A stretch of 64,000 nt of DNA from an uncultured Acidimicrobiaceae bacterium (GCA_963823945.1 CAWGNK010000008.1:30469-94468); one strand, 5' to 3'. Numbered from the stretch's first letter, positions 18,702 through 59,563 are shown. The notes: generated from the sequence alone by a model not told the origin. Made by a program: numbers and translations.

Positions 18702-18805
18702 GCGACAAATTCCTGATTTCGCCACCACCTTGGCGCGGGGTTCGCGTCTGAGAACCGATGTCCACGATCTCCGACTGGCGGCTTGACCCGTGGGCCGGGA
18801 TCTAA
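18702..18805 (+). repeat. Repeat family A, copy 1, with 15-codon sORF (18758..18805, MSTISDWRLDPWAGI*)
   Basis: Direct reading: GCGACAAATTCCTGATTTCGCCACCACCTTGGCGCGGGGTTCGCGTCTGAGAACCGATGTCCACGATCTCCGACTGGCGGCTTGACCCGTGGG. Near-identical cores occur at 19554-19619 (+) and 45208-45307 (-). Confidence 0.75.
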
Positions 18806-18906
18806 CCGGCGATCGACGACACTTCCTCGCTAGCGCTCCGAGTGGATGTTCAGGAACATTGATCTACGACGCCGCTCGAGACATGCGGTTGAGTTACGCG
18901 GTCGGG

Positions 18907-18912
18907 TAGAAT
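18907..18912 (+). promoter_or_regulatory. TAGAAT -10-like hexamer 6 nt upstream of GTG 18919 (possible leaderless mRNA)
   Basis: GGTCGGGTAGAATGACGACGTG read directly. The same hexamer lies downstream of family A copy 3 (45100-45105, minus strand). There is no experimental support. Confidence 0.3.
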
Positions 18913-18918
18913 GACGAC

Positions 18919-19500
18919 GTGCCCAGCCGACTTCGACATGTCTTCGCCCAGCTAGGACCGAAGCCCGGATCACGACGTTCTCTCGCACTTCTACCCGTCG
19001 CCTCGGAACTAACAGGCGATGGGTGGGTGATGATCGACAAGCGCACCTGGCGGACTGGCTGGGTGGGTAATCCATCGGATTGGAGCCGCCGAGCGAAGGA
19101 AGCGGGCACGATCACGGCATGGCGCTCCTTCAAGCAAACCGACACCGCCAGATGGCTTTGGGTAGAGGTGATTCCGGTGGCTTCGGCCGAGGACTCCGCG
19201 TCCGCCTTGCAGCATCTCCTGGCCATGGGCCTTCGGAACCTCGGATTCCAGGGCACGGTCACAGATGAGCACGATCAGGCCGGCGTGGCGGTGCCCGGAT
19301 GCGCGGCCTCGTGGGCCCACGAGCAAAGGACAACTGGGCCACAAGGCGAAGGGGTGGCCCGCTATGTCGCCGGCACCGTTGGAGCCTTCGTCCTCGTATC
19401 GGCGGGTTCCGGGCTTGCAGACACCTGGCCGTGGGAGGAGCTCGTCCGTGTGGTGGAAATTAGCGCTCGGCGCATCTTGGAAACCGAAGCTCAGGGATAG
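18919..19500 (+). CDS. Hypothetical protein (193 aa, no signal peptide)
   Basis: ORF 18919..19500 has balanced amino-acid composition, unlike the neighbouring shadow ORFs. No motif recognised. Confidence 0.5.
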   Translation: MPSRLRHVFAQLGPKPGSRRSLALLPVASELTGDGWVMIDKRTWRTGWVGNPSDWSRRAKEAGTITAWRSFKQTDTARWLWVEVIPVASAEDSASALQHLLAMGLRNLGFQGTVTDEHDQAGVAVPGCAASWAHEQRTTGPQGEGVARYVAGTVGAFVLVSAGSGLADTWPWEELVRVVEISARRILETEAQG

Positions 19501-19553
19501 CCGGGCTACGGGCCTTGCATCTCAACGACAAGTTCTCAATGTCCCCAGTACCT

Positions 19554-19619
19554 GGACGTGGGGCGTTCGCGTCAAAGAACCGATGTCCGCGATCTCGGAC
19601 TGGCGGCTTGAGCCGTGGG
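19554..19619 (+). repeat. Repeat family A, copy 2 (decayed; sORF stop lost)
   Basis: GGACGTGGGGCGTTCGCGTCAAAGAACCGATGTCCGCGATCTCGGACTGGCGGCTTGAGCCGTGGGA. The ATG at 19583 reads MSAISDWRLEPWD and then runs into the antisense of gene 19677..20636. Confidence 0.7.
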
Positions 19620-19676
19620 ACATCTGGCTGGCGTCTCTGGGCAGTCACGCCATGCTGACCCGGAGATCCGAGTTGG

Positions 19677-21134: not shown

Positions 21135-21202
21135 CTTCGAGATTGTGCCAGATGGTCGGTCCGGTGACCGGCTGGGGCTTCCACGGGCCCGCACGTGCTG
21201 AG

Positions 21203-21256
21203 CAAGGGCACACGCGAAGTGTCGGGTGCGCGCCCTGCAACAGAGCACCCGCAAAC
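21203..21256 (-). repeat. Repeat family B, copy 1 (hairpin/pseudoknot-capable element)
   Basis: The reverse complement reads GTTTGCGGGTGCTCTGTTGCAGGGCGCGCACCCGACACTTCGCGTGTGCCCTTG. This matches 40936-40989 (+) at most positions. Confidence 0.6.
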
Positions 21257-21593
21257 CGCACGGGGTTTGCTTCGGCGCATGGCATGTGGCGACCAATAGC
21301 CAGGTCCTGCGGGGCGGGCGGCCGTGTGCTCGCTTTGTCGGGCCGTCGGCGTCTCGCCGAGGGAGCCTGGCGAACGCCGGCGGGCCGGGCGGAGGTGGGG
21401 CTGCGCCCCAGTATTGCGGGCCGTCGCCGCTGACGTGCCGGGCCGACTTCGCCGAGGGTCTTCTCGACGGGGAAGCGGAGGTGACCGTAGATCGACTGGC
21501 CGTTCGAGCCTGATCGTCGGCTACCCCGAGACCGGATTGTGACCACGGGCGCCCTGCAAGAGAGACGCACGCGTCCGACCTGCCAGAACACGG

Positions 21594-27092: not shown

Positions 27093-28394
27093 TCACTTCG
27101 ATGTCGGCGTCCTGGCGACGCCCACCGCGCTGGAGTTGGTGACGGCAAGCGGGAGAAAGCACCGGGCGGGCTCGGCGATCGCGTCCTCGCTGGACACGGT
27201 CGCGGTGCCGACGGCGTTGCCCGAGCTGTCGAGAGCGGTGAGGCTCGCCGGGAGGGGTGCATTGCCGTCGTTGGCGAGGACCGCCCAGCCGTCCTGCACG
27301 TTCATCTGGTCCGTCGCTCCGTCGGCGAAGCTCGCGTGGACGCTGCCCACGTCGGCGGAGACCCGGACCATCACCACCTCGACGGGCGAGGACCCGCCGG
27401 CCCCGGCGACGGAGCTGTCGATGAGCTCAAAGCGCTCTGCTGCGGTCGCCGAGGCGACCTCCGGGAGCGACACGGAGAAGGTGCCGCTCGTCACGGGGTT
27501 CGACACGTCGACAACGAGCATCTCGGTCGTCTCGCAGGGCGAGATGGGGGGGAGGCTTGTCACGCCGTTGGGCCCAGTCGTTCCACTGGATCCCGTCACG
27601 CCGGTCGCGCCCGTGGTGCCGCTCGGTCCGGTCACGCCACTAGGTCCGGTCGTTCCACTGGGTCCGGTCGACCCACTAGGTCCGGTCGTCCCACTGGGTC
27701 CGGTCGACCCACTGGCGCCCGTCGACCCACTGGGTCCGGTCACGCCACTGGGGCCGGTCACGCCACTGGCGCCCGTCGACCCACTGGAACCCGTCACACC
27801 GCTCGCGCCGGATGCACCGCTCACACCCGTTGCCGAGCTCGTGATCGGTGTACCCACGGTCGGATTCGGGACGGCAGACGTCTTGGACACGACAGGCGGC
27901 GACACGAACATCACCGGCGCCACCTGTTCCGTGAACGCCCGGATCGTGATGTCGCCCACGGTCCGCACGAACAGCGGCTTCAGCGTGTCGCTGCGGATGT
28001 CCGGCATGCTGGAGCAGTGGTGCACGGGGCACAGGTCAGCCATGGGCCCCGGCACGGAGGCCTTGGAGCCGTTCGATCCGGTCGACCAGTGCAGACCCTT
28101 CGGCGCGGTGCCGAGGGCCTGGGGCGCGTTGGTCCAGGCGCCGCCTCCGACGAGGCTGGAGATCTGGTTCATCGCCGCCAGGCTGGAGGTCGACGACCCC
28201 CCGGTCGTGGTGCGCGAGATGCCGGCGACCCCCGCCGTAGCGAGGGCGACGACCATCGCGGTCGCAGTGAAGATCTTCAGCTGCCGCTCCCGGCGGCGGT
28301 GTGACCGGGCGACGATCGAGCGGAGCGTCGCGTCCGACGCGGGGGCGCCGGAGTGGTCGAGAAGATGGGAGAGGTCTCCGTCTTCGGGTGTCAT
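27093..28394 (-). CDS. Single-pass membrane protein with collagen-like Gly-X-Y repeat ectodomain
   Basis: 433 aa. TM helix [19 protein letters not shown] (about aa 41-59). 30 uninterrupted G-X-(S/T) triplets at aa 190-279. The stop lies 19 nt upstream of the ECF sigma start. Confidence 0.75.
27558..27827 (-). repeat. 9-bp-periodic coding repeat (30 Gly-X-Y triplets)
   Basis: Counted from the translation [90 protein letters not shown]. The DNA shows reiterated GGTCCGGTC/GGTCCACTG-type units. Confidence 0.9.
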
Positions 28395-40245: not shown

Positions 40246-40935
40246 GAGCAACCCCCCTAGTGATGCCGCAAAGTACCTGGGAAATGCTATGCGCACGCAA
40301 GCGGTTCGTCGCAGATGGTTCATGACGACTGAGACTCAGGCGTCGGCGGGCACGCCCGCAACCCTCGCGCGACGAACGGGGACAGGGATGGAGCGGCTGC
40401 GCGACACCGACTGCTGCCGCGACTGCTGCCGGGTCATCTCCCGTCGGATCGAGACGTCGCGCAACGAGAGCTAGCGGGCGGCGCACGCCTTCGAGCCGGT
40501 TCGCACTTAGAGAGTGGCGCGTTCTCGGGAGGCCACTCGCAGTCGATCGCGGGTGGTGAAGGCACGCTTTGGGAGCATGCACGGGCGCCGATGAGGTCGA
40601 AGTGGCCGCGGGAGTGCACCTGATCCGGGCGACGTGCTTGGCGCAAGCGCGTCCTGGGTTCGTGGTGCCTCCATGTCCTCGCTGGTCTCGGGAAAGCGAA
40701 GGTCGTCCCGGCAGCAACAAGCTCTAGCGCCCCTGCGACCTCGTATGGACTGGATGTTCCTGCTGAAGACAGTGTTGACGGCACCGGCAACGTGTTGGTC
40801 GCTGACCCTGCAGTGGAGAGGGAGGAGGGTTGTCTCTCGGATAGCCGGCGACCCCGCCAGAATCTCGTCCGGCACGTCAGCGACGACTGCCCGCACTACT
40901 GGGGACACCCCAGCCCTCGCTCGGAATGCAATGCA

Positions 40936-40989
40936 GTTTGCGGGTGCTGTGTTACAGGGCACGCACCCGCCACTTTGCGAGTGCCCTTG
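40936..40989 (+). repeat. Repeat family B, copy 2 (hairpin/pseudoknot-capable element)
   Basis: GTTTGCGGGTGCTGTGTTACAGGGCACGCACCCGCCACTTTGCGAGTGCCCTTG. Complementary pairs are GCGGGTGC (40940-47) with GCACCCGC (40963-70), and GGGCAC (40957-62) with GTGCCC (40981-86). Confidence 0.6.
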
Positions 40990-41412
40990 ACCGGCACCTC
41001 AGGGATGCGCTCTGGCGCGCATTCGGGCGCGCGTCATGAGCTACCCAGACAGCCGCAGATCGCCGACTCAGTGCACAGTTCCCGGTACTTCGAACCGCGG
41101 AGGCTGACGTCGTTCTGGCGCGCCACGGTTTCGACGGTCGACGATCCGCGGTTGACACTGGCGCCGACCTTCATCTCGCAGCGCCAAGTCGAGAGGGTTG
41201 CTGGCGACTGCTGAACCGCCCCAGCGGGTTTGCGATCCCCGAGCAATTGACAGATCAGATGACTAAAGTTTCGCCGACCGAGGTCCCGACCAGCGACCGA
41301 GCACCCCGGCGTGCGAGTTCAAATAGACGTGTCTCGGAAGAGGCGCCACGATCCTCCGAAGTCTGGTCGCTCCCGACGCTCCCTCCGAGTAGCCGCGACG
41401 AGAGGGAACGCC

Positions 41413-44460: not shown

Positions 44461-44985
44461 CTACCCTCGTGAAAACGCGACCAGAGCCGGTGGGTCCGTA
44501 AATCTGGCAGTCAGCGTCAACCCATTGGCGCTGAGCGCGAAGGTAATTGGCCGCGGATTGTCGATACAGCTCGGTACGTAAAATCCGTTATTGATCCCTG
44601 AATACCTGCCCTTGGCATGCTGCGTGATATTCGTCCACACCCGCTGGCCAACTTGATGTGTACATGGTCCGGTTTGCAAGAGAGAGTCGAAGGTCTTATA
44701 GGCGTGGGTTACGATTCCAATAAATCCATGTCCGTGTGCGCGTACATCAATTACCGCGCCGCCATATAATCCAATCCAGACACCGACAATGGGGTTTGTC
44801 TTCGAACTCTCCGGCGTCGCGTCCACGCCCGACATCTGAACGGTCCCCGAATACGCGTGAGGTGTGACCGGCAGCGCGCCCGTACGCGGTGATGCGGAAA
44901 GTGCCGTCGGAGCGCACACCCCCATCCCGACCAGGATCACGGTGCACCCCACGAGCACTAGTGCCATTGTTCGGACCTGTCTCAC
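44461..44985 (-). CDS. Secreted hypothetical protein (174 aa)
   Basis: GTG at 44985 follows GGAGGGGAGGGG. Signal peptide MALVLVGCTVILVGMGVCAPTALSA. Confidence 0.6.
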   Translation of the reverse strand: MRQVRTMALVLVGCTVILVGMGVCAPTALSASPRTGALPVTPHAYSGTVQMSGVDATPESSKTNPIVGVWIGLYGGAVIDVRAHGHGFIGIVTHAYKTFDSLLQTGPCTHQVGQRVWTNITQHAKGRYSGINNGFYVPSCIDNPRPITFALSANGLTLTARFTDPPALVAFSRG

Positions 44986-45207
44986 GACCCCTCCCCTCCT
45001 GGACCTTCTCGTACGATTCGGAGATACACCACGAACACCGGAGAGACGACGAAAGGAATCGGTAGCTCCCGCTGTCGCGCGCCGTAATGCCGTGCGGTGA
45101 TTCTATTCCAAGTCGAGCCACGGGTTATTGGCTATCGGCCGCGCGAACGGCAGTCAGAGTGCCCGAGAGTGCCCGATGGGCGACGACGCTAGATCATCCA
45201 CTCCCCC

Positions 45208-45307
45208 CTACGTCCATGGCCGTAGTCGCCAGTCGGAGATCGTGGACATCGGTTCTTCGACGCGAACCCCCGCGCCCACGAGGTGGCGACACCACGGATT
45301 TGTCGCC
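45208..45307 (-). repeat. Repeat family A, copy 3, with 13-codon sORF (45249..45208, MSTISDWRLRPWT*)
   Basis: The reverse complement reads GGCGACAAATCCGTGGTGTCGCCACCTCGTGGGCGCGGGGGTTCGCGTCGAAGAACCGATGTCCACGATCTCCGACTGGCGACTACGGCCATGGACGTAG. Confidence 0.75.
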
Positions 45308-45530
45308 GATGCGCGCAAAGGGAGGCAACACCAAGGGATCCAGTTCGCGGGCTCTTCCACCAGGGTCTCCGCGGCGATGACCGGTCCCCTCTAGGTTTCC
45401 CCTACGGGCGGCCTTTGGCCAGCCGTGACTGGTCTCGTTCAGTGGAGGATCGGGCACCGGGCCGAGCATCATGCAGTGGTCATCCAGCGTCGATGTTGGC
45501 GCCTACGTACCTCTTGGATAAGCGCCTTCT

Positions 45531-46403
45531 CTACACCACATGGCACATCACCTCGACCGACTTGATCACAGAGTGAACGCGCACGCGAACGCGATGCAAG
45601 GCACGGCACTCCCCCCCTATGAACGGGAAGCCGGTGACCTCGTACGTCCCCGCTGGAACGGCCGCGCGGTAGTAGCCCTTCGGCGTCGTCCCAAAGCGAA
45701 AGGCGCGACCCGTCGAGGCCAGCGTGAAGACGACCTTGCCCGGAAGACCTCGGGGCGAAAGTGACGGCGGTCCTCCGACCCGCTCGAGACGCCCCGTCAC
45801 GGTGCCGGTGCCGACCGTGAGCGTCACCGATACGGCTTTGGGAGCGGGGAGTCGAAGCGCCTCGCCGACGAGGACCGCCCGGTACTGGCCCGCGGGCAGT
45901 GGCGGCATCCGAAGGCCTGTCAGACACTTCGGCTCAGACTTCGTGGCGGCGTACATGCCACAGCCGCGATAGGTCGTGATGACCGTGACCGGCAGGCGGG
46001 TAACGCCCGACGGGATGACGAGTGGCCGAGTCACGCAATCGGCGAAGAAGGCCGCAACCGGTGGAAACCGTTTGTTGGTGAGCGTCACCGCGTAGCCGGG
46101 CGTGCATTTGAACGGTCCGCTGTGGTCCCAGAGCTTGAGCAGCTTCCCTCGATTGGTCACGACGACGAAACCTTTGATCGGCGAGCCCGCAACCACGTGG
46201 GTTCGCGAAAGGACGATCCGTGTCGACAGTTGCGGAGACGCGGGAAGGAGGCCGAGGCTCTGGTTCGGGACCGTCGTCACCGTGCCGACGAGCGGCTGGA
46301 GGGAGGATTGACCGCCCGCCGCGGGCCGGCAAAGCACTCCGGCCGATACTCCCGCCATGACGGCGACCACCGCGACGGCAACCGGGACAACCAAGCGCCT
46401 CAT
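45531..46403 (-). CDS. Secreted hypothetical protein (4-Cys domain plus beta-sandwich C-terminus)
   Basis: ATG at 46403 (MRRLVVPVAVAVVAVMAGVSAG) within ORF 45531..46439. Residues 63-196 align with the C-terminus of the 8052..9848 product. Confidence 0.65.
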   Translation of the reverse strand: MRRLVVPVAVAVVAVMAGVSAGVLCRPAAGGQSSLQPLVGTVTTVPNQSLGLLPASPQLSTRIVLSRTHVVAGSPIKGFVVVTNRGKLLKLWDHSGPFKCTPGYAVTLTNKRFPPVAAFFADCVTRPLVIPSGVTRLPVTVITTYRGCGMYAATKSEPKCLTGLRMPPLPAGQYRAVLVGEALRLPAPKAVSVTLTVGTGTVTGRLERVGGPPSLSPRGLPGKVVFTLASTGRAFRFGTTPKGYYRAAVPAGTYEVTGFPFIGGECRALHRVRVRVHSVIKSVEVMCHVV

Positions 46404-46745
46404 GTGCACACACCTGCTGACCGCTGCCAGTGAGTCCAACCTACGCCGTCCGAGGAGCCTCCGCTGTCAGCGGCCGACCGGAAGTCTCGAACGTCATCGT
46501 GGATCACTTTCCCCGAACATCCACCCGGAGTGCCGGCGAGGAGGTGCCCCCGGCCACGAGGTCGAAGTCAAGAGGCGAGTGCCGGGATGCGGCCTCGGCT
46601 CTGCGAGGCGATCCCCCATGGCCAGGTAGCCGCGTCATTGAGAACTTGCCGCGGAAGCGGGACGATAGTCCCTGGCCTCTATGACACTGTGTGCAGACAA
46701 TCGAGGCGTGAGGGTCCGTCAAGGCATTCGAGCGTGGGTTGGACG

Positions 46746-58201: not shown

Positions 58202-58288
58202 GTCGGAGTGGCGGAATAGGCAGACGCGCCAGCTTGAGGGGCTGGTGCCCGCAAGGGCGTAGGGGTTCAAGTCCCCTCTCCGACACCA
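58202..58288 (+). tRNA. tRNA-Leu (anticodon GAG), CCA encoded
   Basis: Hand fold: acceptor GTCGGAG/CTCCGAC, anticodon stem CCAGC/GCTGG with loop TTGAGGG, variable arm TGCCCGCAAGGGCGT, T-arm AGGGG-TTCAAGT-CCCCT, then ACCA. Confidence 0.9.
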
Positions 58289-58423
58289 ATAGAATCCCTA
58301 GTCAGTGGCCAATTCCTGGCAGTTGCCCCCGCCCGACAGTGCTTCCCACTAGTGTCCTGGACACGAATTGGACACGAAGCGTCGGTAGGTTGATCGAAAC
58401 CGACGTGATGGAGCATCCAGCCG

Positions 58424-59563
58424 ATGGCTCAGAACGTGGGGAGACGCGGGGGCACGTGGTTCTACCGGTTGGACTTGCCGCCGGGACCGGACGGGCGCCG
58501 TCACCAGAAGCGAGTCAGCGGGTTCCGCACTGAGCGAGAGGCGAGAAACGCTTTAGCGAACGCATCGGTAGCGAAAGCCGAAGGTCGCTTGCGCCACACG
58601 CAGGCGAAGACATTTGGCGACCTCGCCTCCGAGTGGCTGGTTGCCGTCGGGCCGAACCGCAAGCTGACGACGATGTCCAATTATCGGTTCATCGTCGATA
58701 CGTACCTGACACCGCGCATCGGAACGGTTCGTCTCGATCGCTTGAGCGCGCTGCTCATCCAGCAACTGTATGTGGACCTTCGCTCCGGTGGTCGCCGGGA
58801 TGGGCGGTCGTTGTCTGGAACTCAAGTAGGCAACATCCATCGTGTGTTGCACAACGTGCTCAGCTATGCGCAGCACATGGGGTATCTCATCATGAACCCG
58901 GCGGATCGCGTCGAGCGGCCCCGGGATGACACAGAAAAGCGCCCTGTGTACACGCCTGAGCAGGTCAGGGTGTTGCTGGAGACAGCCAAGGCGGATCGTC
59001 TACATGCCCTTTGGTACTTGGCTATCTCGACGGGGTTGCGCCGATCAGAACTCGCCGGCTTGAAGTGGGAGGACATCGATTCAAAAAGCTCCCAACCAGT
59101 GTTGATGGTCAGGCGCACTCGAACGATGGCTGACAACCGAGTCGTCGATTCGACCCCGAAGACCCGAGCTGGTCGGCGCACGATCGTGCTCGATCAGGGG
59201 ACGGTCACCCTCTTGGTTGAACATCGTGAGTTGATGGTTTCTGAGGCAGAAGCGCGTGGCGACGCGCGCGCCCCCGATCACGTGTTCGTCGACGAGCTGG
59301 GCGAGCCCTACATACCCATACGGCTGACACGTTTGCTTCATGGTCTGCAGCGCCGAGCCGACCTGCCTCAGTTGACGCTTCATGACATGAGACACACGTC
59401 AGCGACCGTCGCGCTTCTCGCGGGCGTGCATCCGAAGGTGGTGTCTGAAAGACATGGCCACGCTTCGACTCAGATCACGCTGGACCGCTACAGCCACGTC
59501 ATCGAATCGATGCAAGTTGCGGCAGCGCAATCGATTGACCGGTTCCTTAGTTCGGATCGTTAG
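58424..59563 (+). CDS. Tyrosine-type site-specific integrase
   Basis: 379 aa. N-terminal arm-binding-like GTWFYRLDLP...RKRVSGFRTEREA. Catalytic residues in TGLRRSELAGLKWEDI (Arg), LHDMRHTSAT (HxxR) and HASTQITLDRYSHV (His, Tyr). Confidence 0.92.
   Translation: MAQNVGRRGGTWFYRLDLPPGPDGRRHQKRVSGFRTEREARNALANASVAKAEGRLRHTQAKTFGDLASEWLVAVGPNRKLTTMSNYRFIVDTYLTPRIGTVRLDRLSALLIQQLYVDLRSGGRRDGRSLSGTQVGNIHRVLHNVLSYAQHMGYLIMNPADRVERPRDDTEKRPVYTPEQVRVLLETAKADRLHALWYLAISTGLRRSELAGLKWEDIDSKSSQPVLMVRRTRTMADNRVVDSTPKTRAGRRTIVLDQGTVTLLVEHRELMVSEAEARGDARAPDHVFVDELGEPYIPIRLTRLLHGLQRRADLPQLTLHDMRHTSATVALLAGVHPKVVSERHGHASTQITLDRYSHVIESMQVAAAQSIDRFLSSDR

What the first reader, a model, noticed from the sequence alone, without database searches (positions are those of the whole stretch)
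18702..18918. Repeat family A: conserved sORF-bearing leader/promoter-like cassette upstream of unrelated accessory genes
There are three clear copies: 18702-18805 (+), 19554-19619 (+) and 45208-45307 (-). They share the near-identical core GTTCGCGTC-NN-AGAACCGATGTCC(A/G)CGATCTC(C/G)GACTGGCG. The embedded ATG gives MSTISDWRLDPWAGI* in copy 1 and MSTISDWRLRPWT* in copy 3. In the region where copies 1 and 3 diverge, 3 of 5 changed codons are synonymous (CGG/CGA, CTT/CTA, CCG/CCA). That hints at selection on the peptide. Upstream lies a hairpin-capable segment (GGCGACA-N9-TGTCGCC in copy 3). Downstream there are collinear blocks (GAGTGGATG…GATCTA) and a TAGAAT hexamer at 18907-18912 and at 45105-45100 on the minus strand. 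Unrelated cargo genes follow (18919..19500 and 44985..44461). Copy 2 has lost its stop and abuts a convergent gene, so it looks decayed. A possible degenerate fourth copy (CCACGATCCTCCGA…CTCCGAGTAG, 41346-41390) lies just upstream of gene 41413 but lacks the ATG, which weakens the peptide interpretation. The element could be a portable promoter plus uORF/leader, a regulator binding module, or a MITE-like element.
Basis: seen in the sequence. Interest (0 to 1): 0.6.

Follow-up and report, generated by a model that had tools for sequence, protein, structure and literature searches.

The report
Dispersed leader repeat, not a peptide

Summary
Three copies are present where stated, none expected by chance. 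I also found a fourth, decayed copy at about 46655-46545 (-).

Scans found the element at about 30 other distinct loci, in Acidimicrobiales MAGs and peat metagenomes. Its shared core is 60 nt: a ribosome-binding box (GTCGGAGA), ATG, the complementary box TCTCCGAC 14 nt downstream, and a stop at codon 16.

Copies in one locus always point the same way. They bracket single genes and mark the points where gene neighbourhoods are swapped.

The decisive result came from divergent copies lying 13 nt upstream of a 55-aa two-helix membrane-protein gene (6266 database relatives, unannotated). Contigs fetched through that protein alone carried the element at the same position in 9 of 11 further lineages. 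There the ORF is usually broken by a lost ATG, a stop at codon 7 or a frameshift, yet the nucleotides stay conserved. They fold so that the 'ORF' half pairs with the gene's ribosome-binding site and start codon.

Best reading: a translational-control leader that has spread as an interspersed repeat. Selection on the peptide is not supported. Covariation support for the fold is weak. What the window's orphan copies do is inferred.

The parts
18702..18724 (+). Copy 1, upstream 'type A' module: imperfect inverted repeat GCGACA-N11-TTCGCC.
   Evidence: Present in about half of all copies. The arms are conserved and the spacer varies. No compensatory changes were seen.
18746..18805 (+). Copy 1, 60-nt core. 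It comprises the SD-like box GTCTGAGA (18746-18753), ATG 18758, the anti-SD box TCTCCGAC (18768-18775), and a 15-codon ORF ending in TAA at 18803-18805.
   Evidence: Pairwise homology between copies with unrelated flanks starts at -12/-11 and ends at +48/+49. The profile built from leaders of the 55-aa gene hits 18747-18783 at E=5.6e-6.
18806..18825 (+). Copy 1, tail CCGGCGATCGACGACACTTC. It corresponds to the consensus CCGGCGATCNGGGAY.
   Evidence: The tail is conserved in most dispersed copies. The related motif YATGGGAC looks like a vestige of the 55-aa gene start ATGGGA; this is inferred.
19525..19620 (+). Copy 2 (decayed). It has the type A module (19525-19546), box GTCAAAGA (19571-19578) and ATG 19583. 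Homology ends after codon 12 and there is no stop.
   Evidence: I3; 63.6 bits.
45208..45307 (-). Copy 3. It has the inverted repeat GGCGACA-N9-TGTCGCC (45307-45285), box GTCGAAGA (45261-45254), ATG 45249 and a 13-codon ORF ending in TAG at 45208. It carries a deletion of about 40 nt relative to copy 1 after codon 12.
   Evidence: I4; 60.5 bits. The leader-profile hit is at 45261-45223, E=2.3e-7.
46545..46655 (-). Copy 4, a decayed relic. The type A module and the G-run/SD region are recognisable, ATG is replaced by AGG, and the ORF region is scrambled. It lies about 105 nt upstream of gene 46439-45531.
   Evidence: I23: 38 nt, 79%; alignment along the whole element; weak nhmmer hit to the upstream part only.
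18919..19500 (+). 193-aa gene of unknown function, bracketed by copies 1 and 2 (a 'cassette').
   Evidence: no Pfam or NCBIfam match. It has a weak collinear homologue (24% identity, E=6e-5) directly downstream of an element copy in L025.
44461..46439 (-). Two secreted hypothetical genes (46439-45531 and 44985-44461). Each is preceded by an element copy, giving a co-oriented element-gene-element-gene array.

Best explanation
**What it is**
- The window copies belong to an interspersed repeat family of Acidimicrobiales. The core is 60 nt; with flanking modules a copy reaches about 140 nt.
- The family is homologous to the conserved 5' leader of a widespread 55-aa, two-helix membrane-protein gene.

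**What is conserved**
- The conserved object is nucleic acid: an SD-like box (GUCGGAGR), the start-codon region, and an anti-SD box (UCUCCGAC).

**How it works next to the 55-aa gene (inferred from folding)**
- The half that reads as a short ORF (UCCACA...UCCGACUG) pairs with that gene's ribosome-binding site and AUG (UAGGUUGGA...AUGG) around an apical hairpin.
- The leader therefore masks translation initiation.
- Opening of the hairpin would switch the gene on. Opening could come from ribosomes reading the short ORF where one exists, from alternative pairing of the anti-SD box with the upstream SD-like box, or from an unknown factor.

**What the window copies are**
- They are orphan or dispersed versions of this leader sitting at junctions between accessory genes in genomic islands.
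- Two still carry SD + ATG + stop. Two are decayed.
- Their near-identical 60-nt cores act as homology patches, so recombination and gene conversion shuffle the flanking genes and keep the cores alike.

**Shown versus inferred**
- Shown: the family, its boundaries, the arrays, the link to the 55-aa gene, and loss of the ORF in conserved copies.
- Inferred: RNA-level masking of the ribosome-binding site, and any regulatory role of the orphan copies in this window.
For: **Family is real and restricted**
- 4 genome loci and 36 genuine metagenome loci, mostly from peat.
- nhmmer finds further degenerate copies.
- No hits in viral contigs or plasmids.

**Discrete core**
- Homology between copies with unrelated flanks begins at -12/-11 and ends at +48/+49 in independent pairs: L004/L010, L005/L021, L019/L031, and L005 against L008, L010, L031 and L032.

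**Position next to the 55-aa gene**
- The 55-aa protein has 6266 relatives.
- Contigs fetched by protein identity alone carry the element 13 nt upstream in L046, L049, L052, L055, L058, L060, L068, L070 and L077. It is absent only in the two most divergent lineages, L063 and L076. L064 carries it split by an IS.
- A profile of these leaders hits the window copies at E=2e-7 and 6e-6.

**ORF not conserved there**
- An ATG-initiated ORF with both Trp codons survives in about 2 of 11 lineages.
- Substitutions by codon position 1:2:3 are about 11:14:16 by my count on the sequences.

**Fold**
- RNAalifold on 8 and then 12 lineages gives the same three helices, pairing the ORF half with the ribosome-binding site and AUG.
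- 92.9% of cells are paired. In L046 one double compensatory change (A-U to U-A) accompanies the very substitutions (GAC to GUC, UGG to UAG) that destroy the ORF.
- Single-sequence minimum-energy folds recover the architecture in 4 of 5 lineages, with z-scores from -3.9 to -1.5.

**Apparent synonymous variation**
- The variation at codons 8-9 falls in the apical stem as G-U/A-U alternation.
Against: **Fold not proven**
- Covariation is not statistically significant. The covariation score is 0.150 against 0.130 in shuffles (61 of 500 shuffles reach it), and percent paired is no better than the shuffles. The fold is compatible with the data, not proven by it.
- In the dispersed (window-type) copies none of four candidate helices shows compensatory change. 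Fold z-scores there are unremarkable, -1.7 to +0.5.

**Orphan copies lack the partner strand**
- The window copies lack the downstream ribosome-binding-site partner strand.
- In about a quarter of dispersed copies the next gene is convergent. A leader function for them is therefore unproven, and they may be inert relics.

**Some coding-like signal remains**
- Frame 0 has the lowest pN/pS for codons 2-12: 0.63-0.71, against 0.84-1.6 in the other frames.
- Frame 0 has the highest BLOSUM score: 2.71 against at most 1.12.
- Divergent copies end 13-18 codons in, using different stop codons.

**No transcript data**
- No transcription start, promoter or terminator evidence was obtained.
Confidence: 0.45

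Rival explanations
1. The short ORF is the function. It would be a translated 13-16-residue peptide (M-S-T-I-S-D-W-R-L-x-x-W...). It would act in cis as a leader or arrest peptide controlling the downstream gene, or in trans as a micropeptide.
For: - About 24 of about 41 distinct copies keep GGAG, 5 nt, ATG and a stop. The universal core runs exactly from the SD box to the stop codon.
- Divergent copies keep W7, R8 (CGG/CGA/AGG/AGA), L/I/V9 and W12, and one copy has an in-frame 6-nt insertion.
- Frame 0 scores best by pN/pS and by BLOSUM.
Against: - In the only context with conserved synteny (upstream of the 55-aa gene) the start codon is lost in 6 of 11 lineages (replaced by ACA/ACG/AGA in five, none at all in L077), codon 7 is a stop in 3 and 2 carry frameshifts, yet the nucleotides remain conserved.
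- At least eight dispersed copies carry ACG.
- The C-terminal codons evolve without constraint, with second-position changes commonest.
- The near identity of dispersed copies reflects recent spread, not purifying selection. Orthologous copies diverge as fast as the neighbouring genes.
- The 'synonymous' changes are equally explained as G-U/A-U alternation in a stem.
Confidence: 0.15
2. The element is primarily a DNA-level junction or recombination repeat, analogous to REP, BOX or integron attC/VCR sequences. It would bracket gene cassettes and mediate their exchange. The RNA and ORF features would be secondary.
For: - All adjacent copies within a locus are co-oriented: about 14 independent pairs, so P is about 6e-5 if orientation were random. 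This holds even where the intervening genes are on the other strand.
- Copies bracket single genes 0.6-5 kb apart.
- The same PAS-sensor cassette follows three unrelated upstream contexts, and the same upstream gene is followed by different cassettes.
- Copies sit in low-GC islands next to tRNA genes, integrases, a RepSA replicon and IS elements.
- An IS110-family element is inserted precisely in the conserved box with a CT core, as such IS elements do with REP and attC repeats.
Against: - No recombinase recurs near the arrays.
- There is no attC-like long hairpin and no paired R''/R' sites in the correct polarity.
- No terminal inverted repeats or target duplications were seen.
- Crossover points are not fixed. 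L010 keeps the L004-type SD box, so its crossover lies inside the core. This fits ordinary homologous recombination between identical 60-nt patches.
- The fixed 13-nt spacing, the constant strand, and the complementarity to the ribosome-binding site of the 55-aa gene are not explained by a DNA site.
Confidence: 0.2
3. The unit 'leader + 55-aa hydrophobic protein' is a type I toxin-antitoxin-like module. It would resemble hok/mok/sok: a structured leader, a small coupling ORF and an antisense RNA. The window copies would then be orphan leader or antitoxin relics.
For: - The protein is small and has two transmembrane helices. No family is assigned to it.
- The leader masks the ribosome-binding site and carries a vestigial upstream ORF.
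- The unit occurs in a different neighbourhood in almost every lineage, and on islands.
- One copy is interrupted by an IS, as reported for hok loci in E. coli K-12 (from my own knowledge).
Against: - No promoter was found on the opposite strand.
- Toxicity is untested.
- Type I systems are not established in Actinomycetota, to my knowledge.
- 55 residues with two helices is at the large end for such toxins.
- The family's very high conservation would also fit a housekeeping small membrane protein.
Confidence: 0.1
4. The inverted repeats (GTCGGAGA-N14-TCTCCGAC and GGCGACA-N9-TGTCGCC) are operators for a dimeric DNA-binding protein, or part of a portable promoter.
For: - The core contains a perfect 8-bp inverted repeat, and the type A arms are conserved while their spacer varies.
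- Several copies lie between divergent genes.
Against: - No promoter-like hexamers were found.
- No regulator gene recurs nearby.
- Arm mismatches are frequent.
- The fixed strand and distance relative to the 55-aa gene's start favour an RNA role.
Confidence: 0.05

Closest known systems
Leader hairpins that mask the ribosome-binding site, opened by translation of a short upstream ORF (ermC-type translational attenuation; hok/mok coupling)
   Same: - A short ORF with its own SD lies just upstream of a gene.
- The ORF's coding segment is complementary to the downstream gene's ribosome-binding site and AUG.
- The stop of the upstream ORF lies 10-13 nt before the next start.
   Different: - The upstream ORF is lost in most lineages while the leader persists.
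- No antibiotic-resistance or toxin function is known for the downstream gene.
- The leader has also multiplied as orphan copies away from its gene.
Modular interspersed intergenic repeats (REP/BIME, pneumococcal BOX, ERIC, Neisseria Correia elements)
   Same: - Strictly intergenic, with several copies per genome.
- Built from modules (type A hairpin, core, tail) that occur in different combinations.
- Contains hairpin-capable inverted repeats.
- Targeted by an IS110-family element, as REP sequences are.
   Different: - Only a few copies per genome rather than hundreds.
- The core carries SD + ATG + stop.
- There is a clear 'parent' context as the leader of one gene family.
- Copies within a locus are always co-oriented.
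Integron cassette arrays with homogeneous attC sites (e.g. Vibrio cholerae repeats)
   Same: - Co-oriented repeats of 60-140 nt bracket single, mostly hypothetical genes in a low-GC accessory region.
- Cassettes are found in different orders.
   Different: - No intI, attI or Pc is present.
- There is no attC-type imperfect palindrome.
- ACCTAAC at the 3' end matches RYYYAAC but has no GTTRRRY partner in the correct polarity.
- Crossover points are not fixed.
Mycobacterial interspersed repetitive units (MIRUs)
   Same: An actinobacterial intergenic repeat that contains a small ORF between co-oriented genes.
   Different: - MIRUs are tandem 40-100-bp units whose ORFs overlap the flanking stop and start codons.
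- Here the copies are single and dispersed, and they do not overlap the flanking genes.

Membership tests
Leader-peptide / upstream-ORF attenuator | A short ORF with SD and start codon is conserved across homologues. | tested here: not met
   Upstream of the 55-aa gene the ATG is kept in only 5 of 11 lineages. Stops at codon 7 occur in L046, L070 and L077, and frameshifts in L049 and L070. At least eight dispersed copies have ACG.
Leader-peptide / upstream-ORF attenuator | Located in the 5' region of, and co-oriented with, the regulated gene. | tested here: inconclusive
   Always met for the 55-aa gene, with 13-nt spacing. For dispersed copies about 18 have a co-oriented gene within 400 nt and about 8 face a convergent gene.
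Structured cis-regulatory leader that masks the ribosome-binding site | A segment complementary to the downstream ribosome-binding site and AUG, forming a conserved helix. | tested here: met
   RNAalifold pairs UCCGAC with GUUGGA and CCA with UGG of the AUGG. 92.9% of cells are paired. Minimum-energy folds agree in 4 of 5 lineages.
Structured cis-regulatory leader that masks the ribosome-binding site | Statistically supported covariation. | tested here: inconclusive
   Two pairs show double changes. The covariation score is 0.150 against 0.130 in shuffles, reached by 61 of 500 shuffles. Only 12 lineages were available.
Any Rfam family | A covariance-model match. | tested here: not met
   The only window matches at the gathering threshold are two tRNAs. 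Nothing relevant appears at E<=10 or E<=1 on the window copy, L031 or the leader of the 55-aa gene.
Integron attC / cassette array | R'' (RYYYAAC) and R' (GTTRRRY) core sites at the two ends, with an imperfect palindrome between them. | tested here: not met
   Only ACCTAAC at the 3' end fits, and no partner is present. Folds are not more stable than shuffles. The candidate helices are not maintained.
Integron attC / cassette array | An adjacent integron integrase. | tested here: not met
   A Pfam scan of 137 neighbouring proteins found only two generic phage integrases, both next to tRNA genes.
Integron attC / cassette array | Co-oriented repeats bracketing single genes. | tested here: met
   Seen in the window (two arrays) and in L001/L011, L004, L008, L010, L021, L025, L032, L041 and L055.
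MITE | Terminal inverted repeats, target-site duplication and a uniform length. | tested here: not met
   The two ends (GCGACAAG... and ...GGGACCTAAC) are not inverted repeats. Copies share different extents, with left boundaries clustering at -65 to -56, -30 to -16 and -15 to -6. No flanking duplications were seen.
Fragment of a known protein gene or IS | Similarity to a longer protein family. | tested here: not met
   Only two hits among 5.8 billion proteins, both read-through variants of the same ORF.
Type I toxin-antitoxin | A small hydrophobic protein with a structured leader, plus an antisense RNA and toxicity. | not testable with these tools
   The protein and leader features are present. 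The scan finds no antisense promoter. Toxicity and transcripts cannot be assessed here.

The most novel reading that the evidence does not exclude
The 55-aa membrane protein and its masking leader form a self-contained micro-cassette, possibly a type I toxin-antitoxin-like module. The leader-derived repeats would then define an integrase-independent gene-cassette system in Actinomycetota: co-oriented junction repeats that let accessory genes be swapped between islands, and that bridge-RNA IS110 elements use as landing sites.
Probability: 0.12. Interest if true: 0.8.

Novelty: new member of a known kind. Interest (0 to 1): 0.5.

Why it matters
- It assigns a likely function and an origin to an unannotated repeat in uncultured peat-bog Acidimicrobiales.
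- It points to a very widespread 55-aa membrane protein (thousands of database relatives, no family assigned). That protein has a conserved, apparently structured leader that is not in Rfam.
- It is a worked example of how a neat short ORF with synonymous differences between three copies can mislead. Wider sampling shows that the nucleic acid, not the peptide, is conserved.
- If the repeats really promote cassette exchange, they would help explain how accessory genes are shuffled in islands of a phylum where integrons are, to my knowledge, not reported.

Tried and rejected
- **Rfam.** Searches at gathering and at permissive thresholds on the window, on L031 and on the leader of the 55-aa gene found nothing relevant.
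- **Viral contigs and plasmids.** No match.
- **Literature search for the peptide string.** No paper.
- **Protein search with the 15-mer.** The 47-aa read-through form found only itself and one sibling.
- **Four candidate RNA helices in the dispersed copies** (type A hairpin, SD:anti-SD 8-mer, CGGC/GCCG, stop-codon loop). No covariation, and changes mostly break the pairs.
- **tRNA-like or att-site origin.** tRNA genes are not consistently nearby and the sequence does not fit a T-arm.
- **Common neighbouring recombinase or regulator.** None recurs among 137 neighbours.
- **Read-through or coding continuation past TAA** ('PA[ILMVF]xD').
  - The best-scoring frame beats the next by only a small margin (1.75 against 1.40).
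  - In L002 the tail is out of frame.
  - The motif is better explained as a vestige of the 55-aa gene start.
- **Promoter and terminator scans.** Nothing above chance.
No profile hit.

Full report
**1. The observation**

The three copies are real. The 30-nt core matches at 18751-18780 (+), 19576-19605 (+) and 45227-45256 (-). No shuffle of the window gave any match. The generic repeat finder recovers the same pairs (I3 and I4).

These are the two peptides, the three synonymous codon pairs, the GGCGACA-N9-TGTCGCC repeat in copy 3, the GAGTGGATG/GATCTA blocks and the two TAGAAT hexamers.

The window is about 71% GC. All copies lie in lower-GC islands at 17-21.6 kb and 39.6-47 kb. The first island ends at tRNA-Leu(CAA). 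A third island starts at tRNA-Leu(GAG) with a tyrosine integrase. The genes next to the copies have no Pfam or NCBIfam family.

**2. The family outside the window**

A codon-degenerate pattern found four loci in two Acidimicrobiales MAGs. A 23-nt pattern found 41 metagenome loci, mostly from peat. Five of those are chance matches inside genes.

Across about 28 distinct sequences, the part common to all copies runs from GTCGGAGAACCG through a 15-codon ORF (consensus MSTISDWRLEPWAGT) to TAA. The sequence upstream comes in several unrelated types.

A profile search of all fetched DNA found further, more degenerate copies. Many carry ACG instead of ATG, or a stop at codon 7. The window has a fourth, decayed copy at about 46655-46545 (-).

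**3. Anatomy and arrangement**

Pairwise BLAST between copies with long flanks shows sharp limits of shared sequence. The limits fall at -12/-11 and +48/+49 relative to the ATG, with secondary limits at the start of the type A module and at the end of a 20-nt tail.

Three comparisons show that neighbourhoods are recombined at or within the 60-nt core:
- L004 and L010 share their upstream gene up to the last base of the stop codon, then diverge.
- L005 and L021 behave in the same way.
- A three-PAS-domain sensor gene follows the element behind three unrelated upstream contexts (L005, L010, L031/L032/L008).

Copies within one locus are always co-oriented. This holds for about 14 independent adjacent pairs, even where the genes between them are on the other strand. 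Copies bracket single genes 0.6-5 kb apart.

Neighbouring genes share no recurrent family. Mobile-element genes appear only sporadically: two integrases, two rve, two DDE, RepSA and ArdC.

**4. Peptide or nucleic acid?**

Several points favour a peptide:
- GGAG lies 5 nt before the ATG.
- The core ends at the stop codon.
- Divergent copies (L025, L039, L041) keep W7, R8, an aliphatic residue at position 9 and W12, using different codons. They stop 13-18 codons in, with different stop codons.
- Frame 0 has the lowest pN/pS for codons 2-12 and the highest BLOSUM score.

Other points argue against it:
- Codons 10, 11 and 13-15 change freely, most often at second positions.
- Orthologous copies diverge about as fast as the adjacent genes. 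The near identity of dispersed copies therefore reflects recent spread or gene conversion, not constraint.
- The peptide matches nothing in 5.8 billion proteins except two read-through variants.

**5. The decisive context**

The divergent copies in L039 and L041 lie 10-13 nt upstream of a 55-aa protein with two predicted membrane helices. That protein has 6266 relatives at E<=1e-3, named only as hypothetical proteins of Acidimicrobiales. It has no Pfam or NCBIfam family.

I fetched contigs by exact identity to ten of these relatives. This sampling ignores the element's own sequence. The results were:
- The element is present at the same position and on the same strand in L046, L049, L052, L055, L058, L060, L068, L070 and L077.
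- It is split by an IS in L064.
- It is absent only before the two most divergent relatives, L063 and L076.

The surrounding genes differ in almost every lineage.

A profile built from these leaders hits the window copies at E=2e-7 and 6e-6, over the SD box through codon 8. The motif YATGGGAC recurs downstream of dispersed copies. It resembles the ATGGGA start of the 55-aa gene and is probably a vestige of it (inference).

In this context the ORF is not conserved:
- The ATG is kept in 5 of 11 lineages. It is replaced by ACA or ACG in four and by AGA in one, and L077 has none.
- Codon 7 is TAG or TGA in three lineages.
- Two lineages have 2-nt deletions.
- W12 is lost in several.

The block CCACAATCTCCGACTGGAGACTGGCGGTATGGTCAGTTTGAGTAGGTTGGATTGATGGGA nevertheless remains highly similar.

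**6. The fold**

RNAalifold on 8 and then 12 lineages gives one architecture:
- An apical hairpin (AGACUGGC / GGUCAGUU).
- A helix pairing UCCGAC (codons 5-6 of the 'ORF') with GUUGGA in the ribosome-binding region of the 55-aa gene.
- A helix pairing CCA with the UGG of AUGG.

Of the cells, 92.9% form standard pairs. In L046 the substitutions that destroy the ORF (GAC to GUC, UGG to UAG) are matched by a U-to-A change opposite, and turn a G-U pair into A-U. Independent single-sequence folds recover the same architecture in four of five lineages, with z-scores of -3.9 to -1.5.

The caveat is that covariation measures do not exceed the shuffles significantly. The fold is supported by consistency and by its logic of masking the ribosome-binding site and AUG, not by statistics.

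In the dispersed copies the anti-SD box UCUCCGAC is instead complementary to the copy's own SD-like box GUCGGAGA (8 bp, ATG in the loop). No covariation could be detected there because the sequences are nearly invariant.

**7. Interpretation**

The best-supported account has three parts.
- The element is the translational-control leader of the 55-aa gene.
- It has also spread as an interspersed repeat.
- The window's copies are dispersed versions at junctions between accessory genes: two intact in form and two decayed.

The identical 60-nt cores are sufficient substrates for homologous recombination and gene conversion. That would explain both the mosaic neighbourhoods and the homogeneity of the cores.

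The strict co-orientation of copies is not explained by this account. It keeps alive a cassette-junction (attC- or REP-like) reading. I could not support that reading with a recombinase, an attC-type structure or fixed crossover points.

A type I toxin-antitoxin-like nature of the leader + 55-aa unit is an attractive but untested possibility.

**8. Known families**

No Rfam family matches. The closest mechanistic analogues are leaders that mask the ribosome-binding site and are opened by upstream-ORF translation (ermC, hok/mok). The closest structural analogues are modular intergenic repeats (BOX, REP/BIME) and homogeneous attC arrays. Defining features of integrons, MITEs and leader-peptide attenuators were tested and are not met (see the membership table).

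I class the element as a new member of known kinds: an undescribed cis-regulatory leader that doubles as an interspersed repeat.

**9. Verdict**

The peptide interpretation is not supported, while the 'portable leader' idea is partly right. Interest is moderate. The element itself is of an ordinary kind. It does lead to an unannotated, very widespread small membrane protein with a conserved leader, and to co-oriented repeat-bracketed gene cassettes in Acidimicrobiales that deserve a genome-wide look.

Noticed in passing
L081 2396-3619 (transposase) with junctions near 2173 and 3638; empty site L082 about 2330-2340: A 1465-nt IS110-family element (DEDD_Tnp_IS110 + Transposase_20) is inserted exactly in the element's most conserved box. 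The empty site reads ...CACGATCT|CCGACTGG..., and the filled site has CT on both sides. The left end of the IS contains CTAGTCGGAGAAC, an 11/13 complement of the target, as expected for a bridge-RNA target loop.
   Followed up: partly
L041 8196-8032 (-), L039 3161-3328, L046-L084 (gene positions): There is a 55-aa protein family with two predicted membrane helices: 6266 relatives, no Pfam or NCBIfam family, and source names only 'hypothetical protein [Acidimicrobiales]'. It sits in a different gene neighbourhood in almost every lineage. A second, degenerate element copy often follows about 130 nt downstream (e.g. L055 1302-1363).
   Followed up: partly
window 21188-21441 (+) and 40800-41004 (-): A second repeat family ('B', 73 nt at 82% plus 36 nt at 92%) lies next to tRNA-Leu(CAA) and at the start of the second island. 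In L031, L032, L019 and L008 the same sequence lies directly upstream of the type A module. One frame reads ...RHVSDxxPxYWG... in all copies.
   Followed up: partly
window 45310-45440 (-): The roughly 130 nt upstream of copy 3 (GGCCAAAGGCCGCCCGTAGGGGAAACCTAGAGGGGACCGGTCATCGCCGCGGAGACCC...) is shared with the regions upstream of element copies in L004 and L011 at 78-85% identity. This is a third repeated module of unknown nature. It has no Rfam hit at the gathering threshold.
   Followed up: no
window 58202-59563: tRNA-Leu(GAG) is followed by a tyrosine integrase (Phage_integrase, Arm-DNA-bind_4) and 59-64% GC sequence running to the end of the window. This is an integrated element without a copy of the repeat.
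   Followed up: no
window 18907-18921: TAGAAT ends 6 nt before the GTG start at 18919, the geometry of a leaderless actinobacterial promoter. The near-identical metagenome contig L023 has CAGAAT there.
   Followed up: no
window 27553-27840: Eleven head-to-tail copies of an 18-nt unit lie inside a long ORF, which points to a hexapeptide-repeat protein.
   Followed up: no
L005, L008, L010, L031, L032 (13 nt after the element's stop): In the PAS-sensor cassette the element is followed by a strong hairpin (AGGGGCGGGGCCTCCGCCCCT). An AT-rich spacer of variable length then precedes the gene. This may be a terminator or attenuator specific to that cassette.
   Followed up: no
L025 6019-7589 and 8935-11987: Four co-oriented element copies within 3 kb lie beside a pSAM2-type replication initiator (RepSA) and an excisionase-like gene, downstream of tRNA-Asn and tRNA-Met. 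This looks like the cargo region of an actinomycete integrative conjugative element.
   Followed up: no
L081 3229-3310 (-): Rfam family Ms_AS-4 (Actinobacteria sRNA) matches antisense to the IS110 transposase gene (70.5 bits).
   Followed up: no
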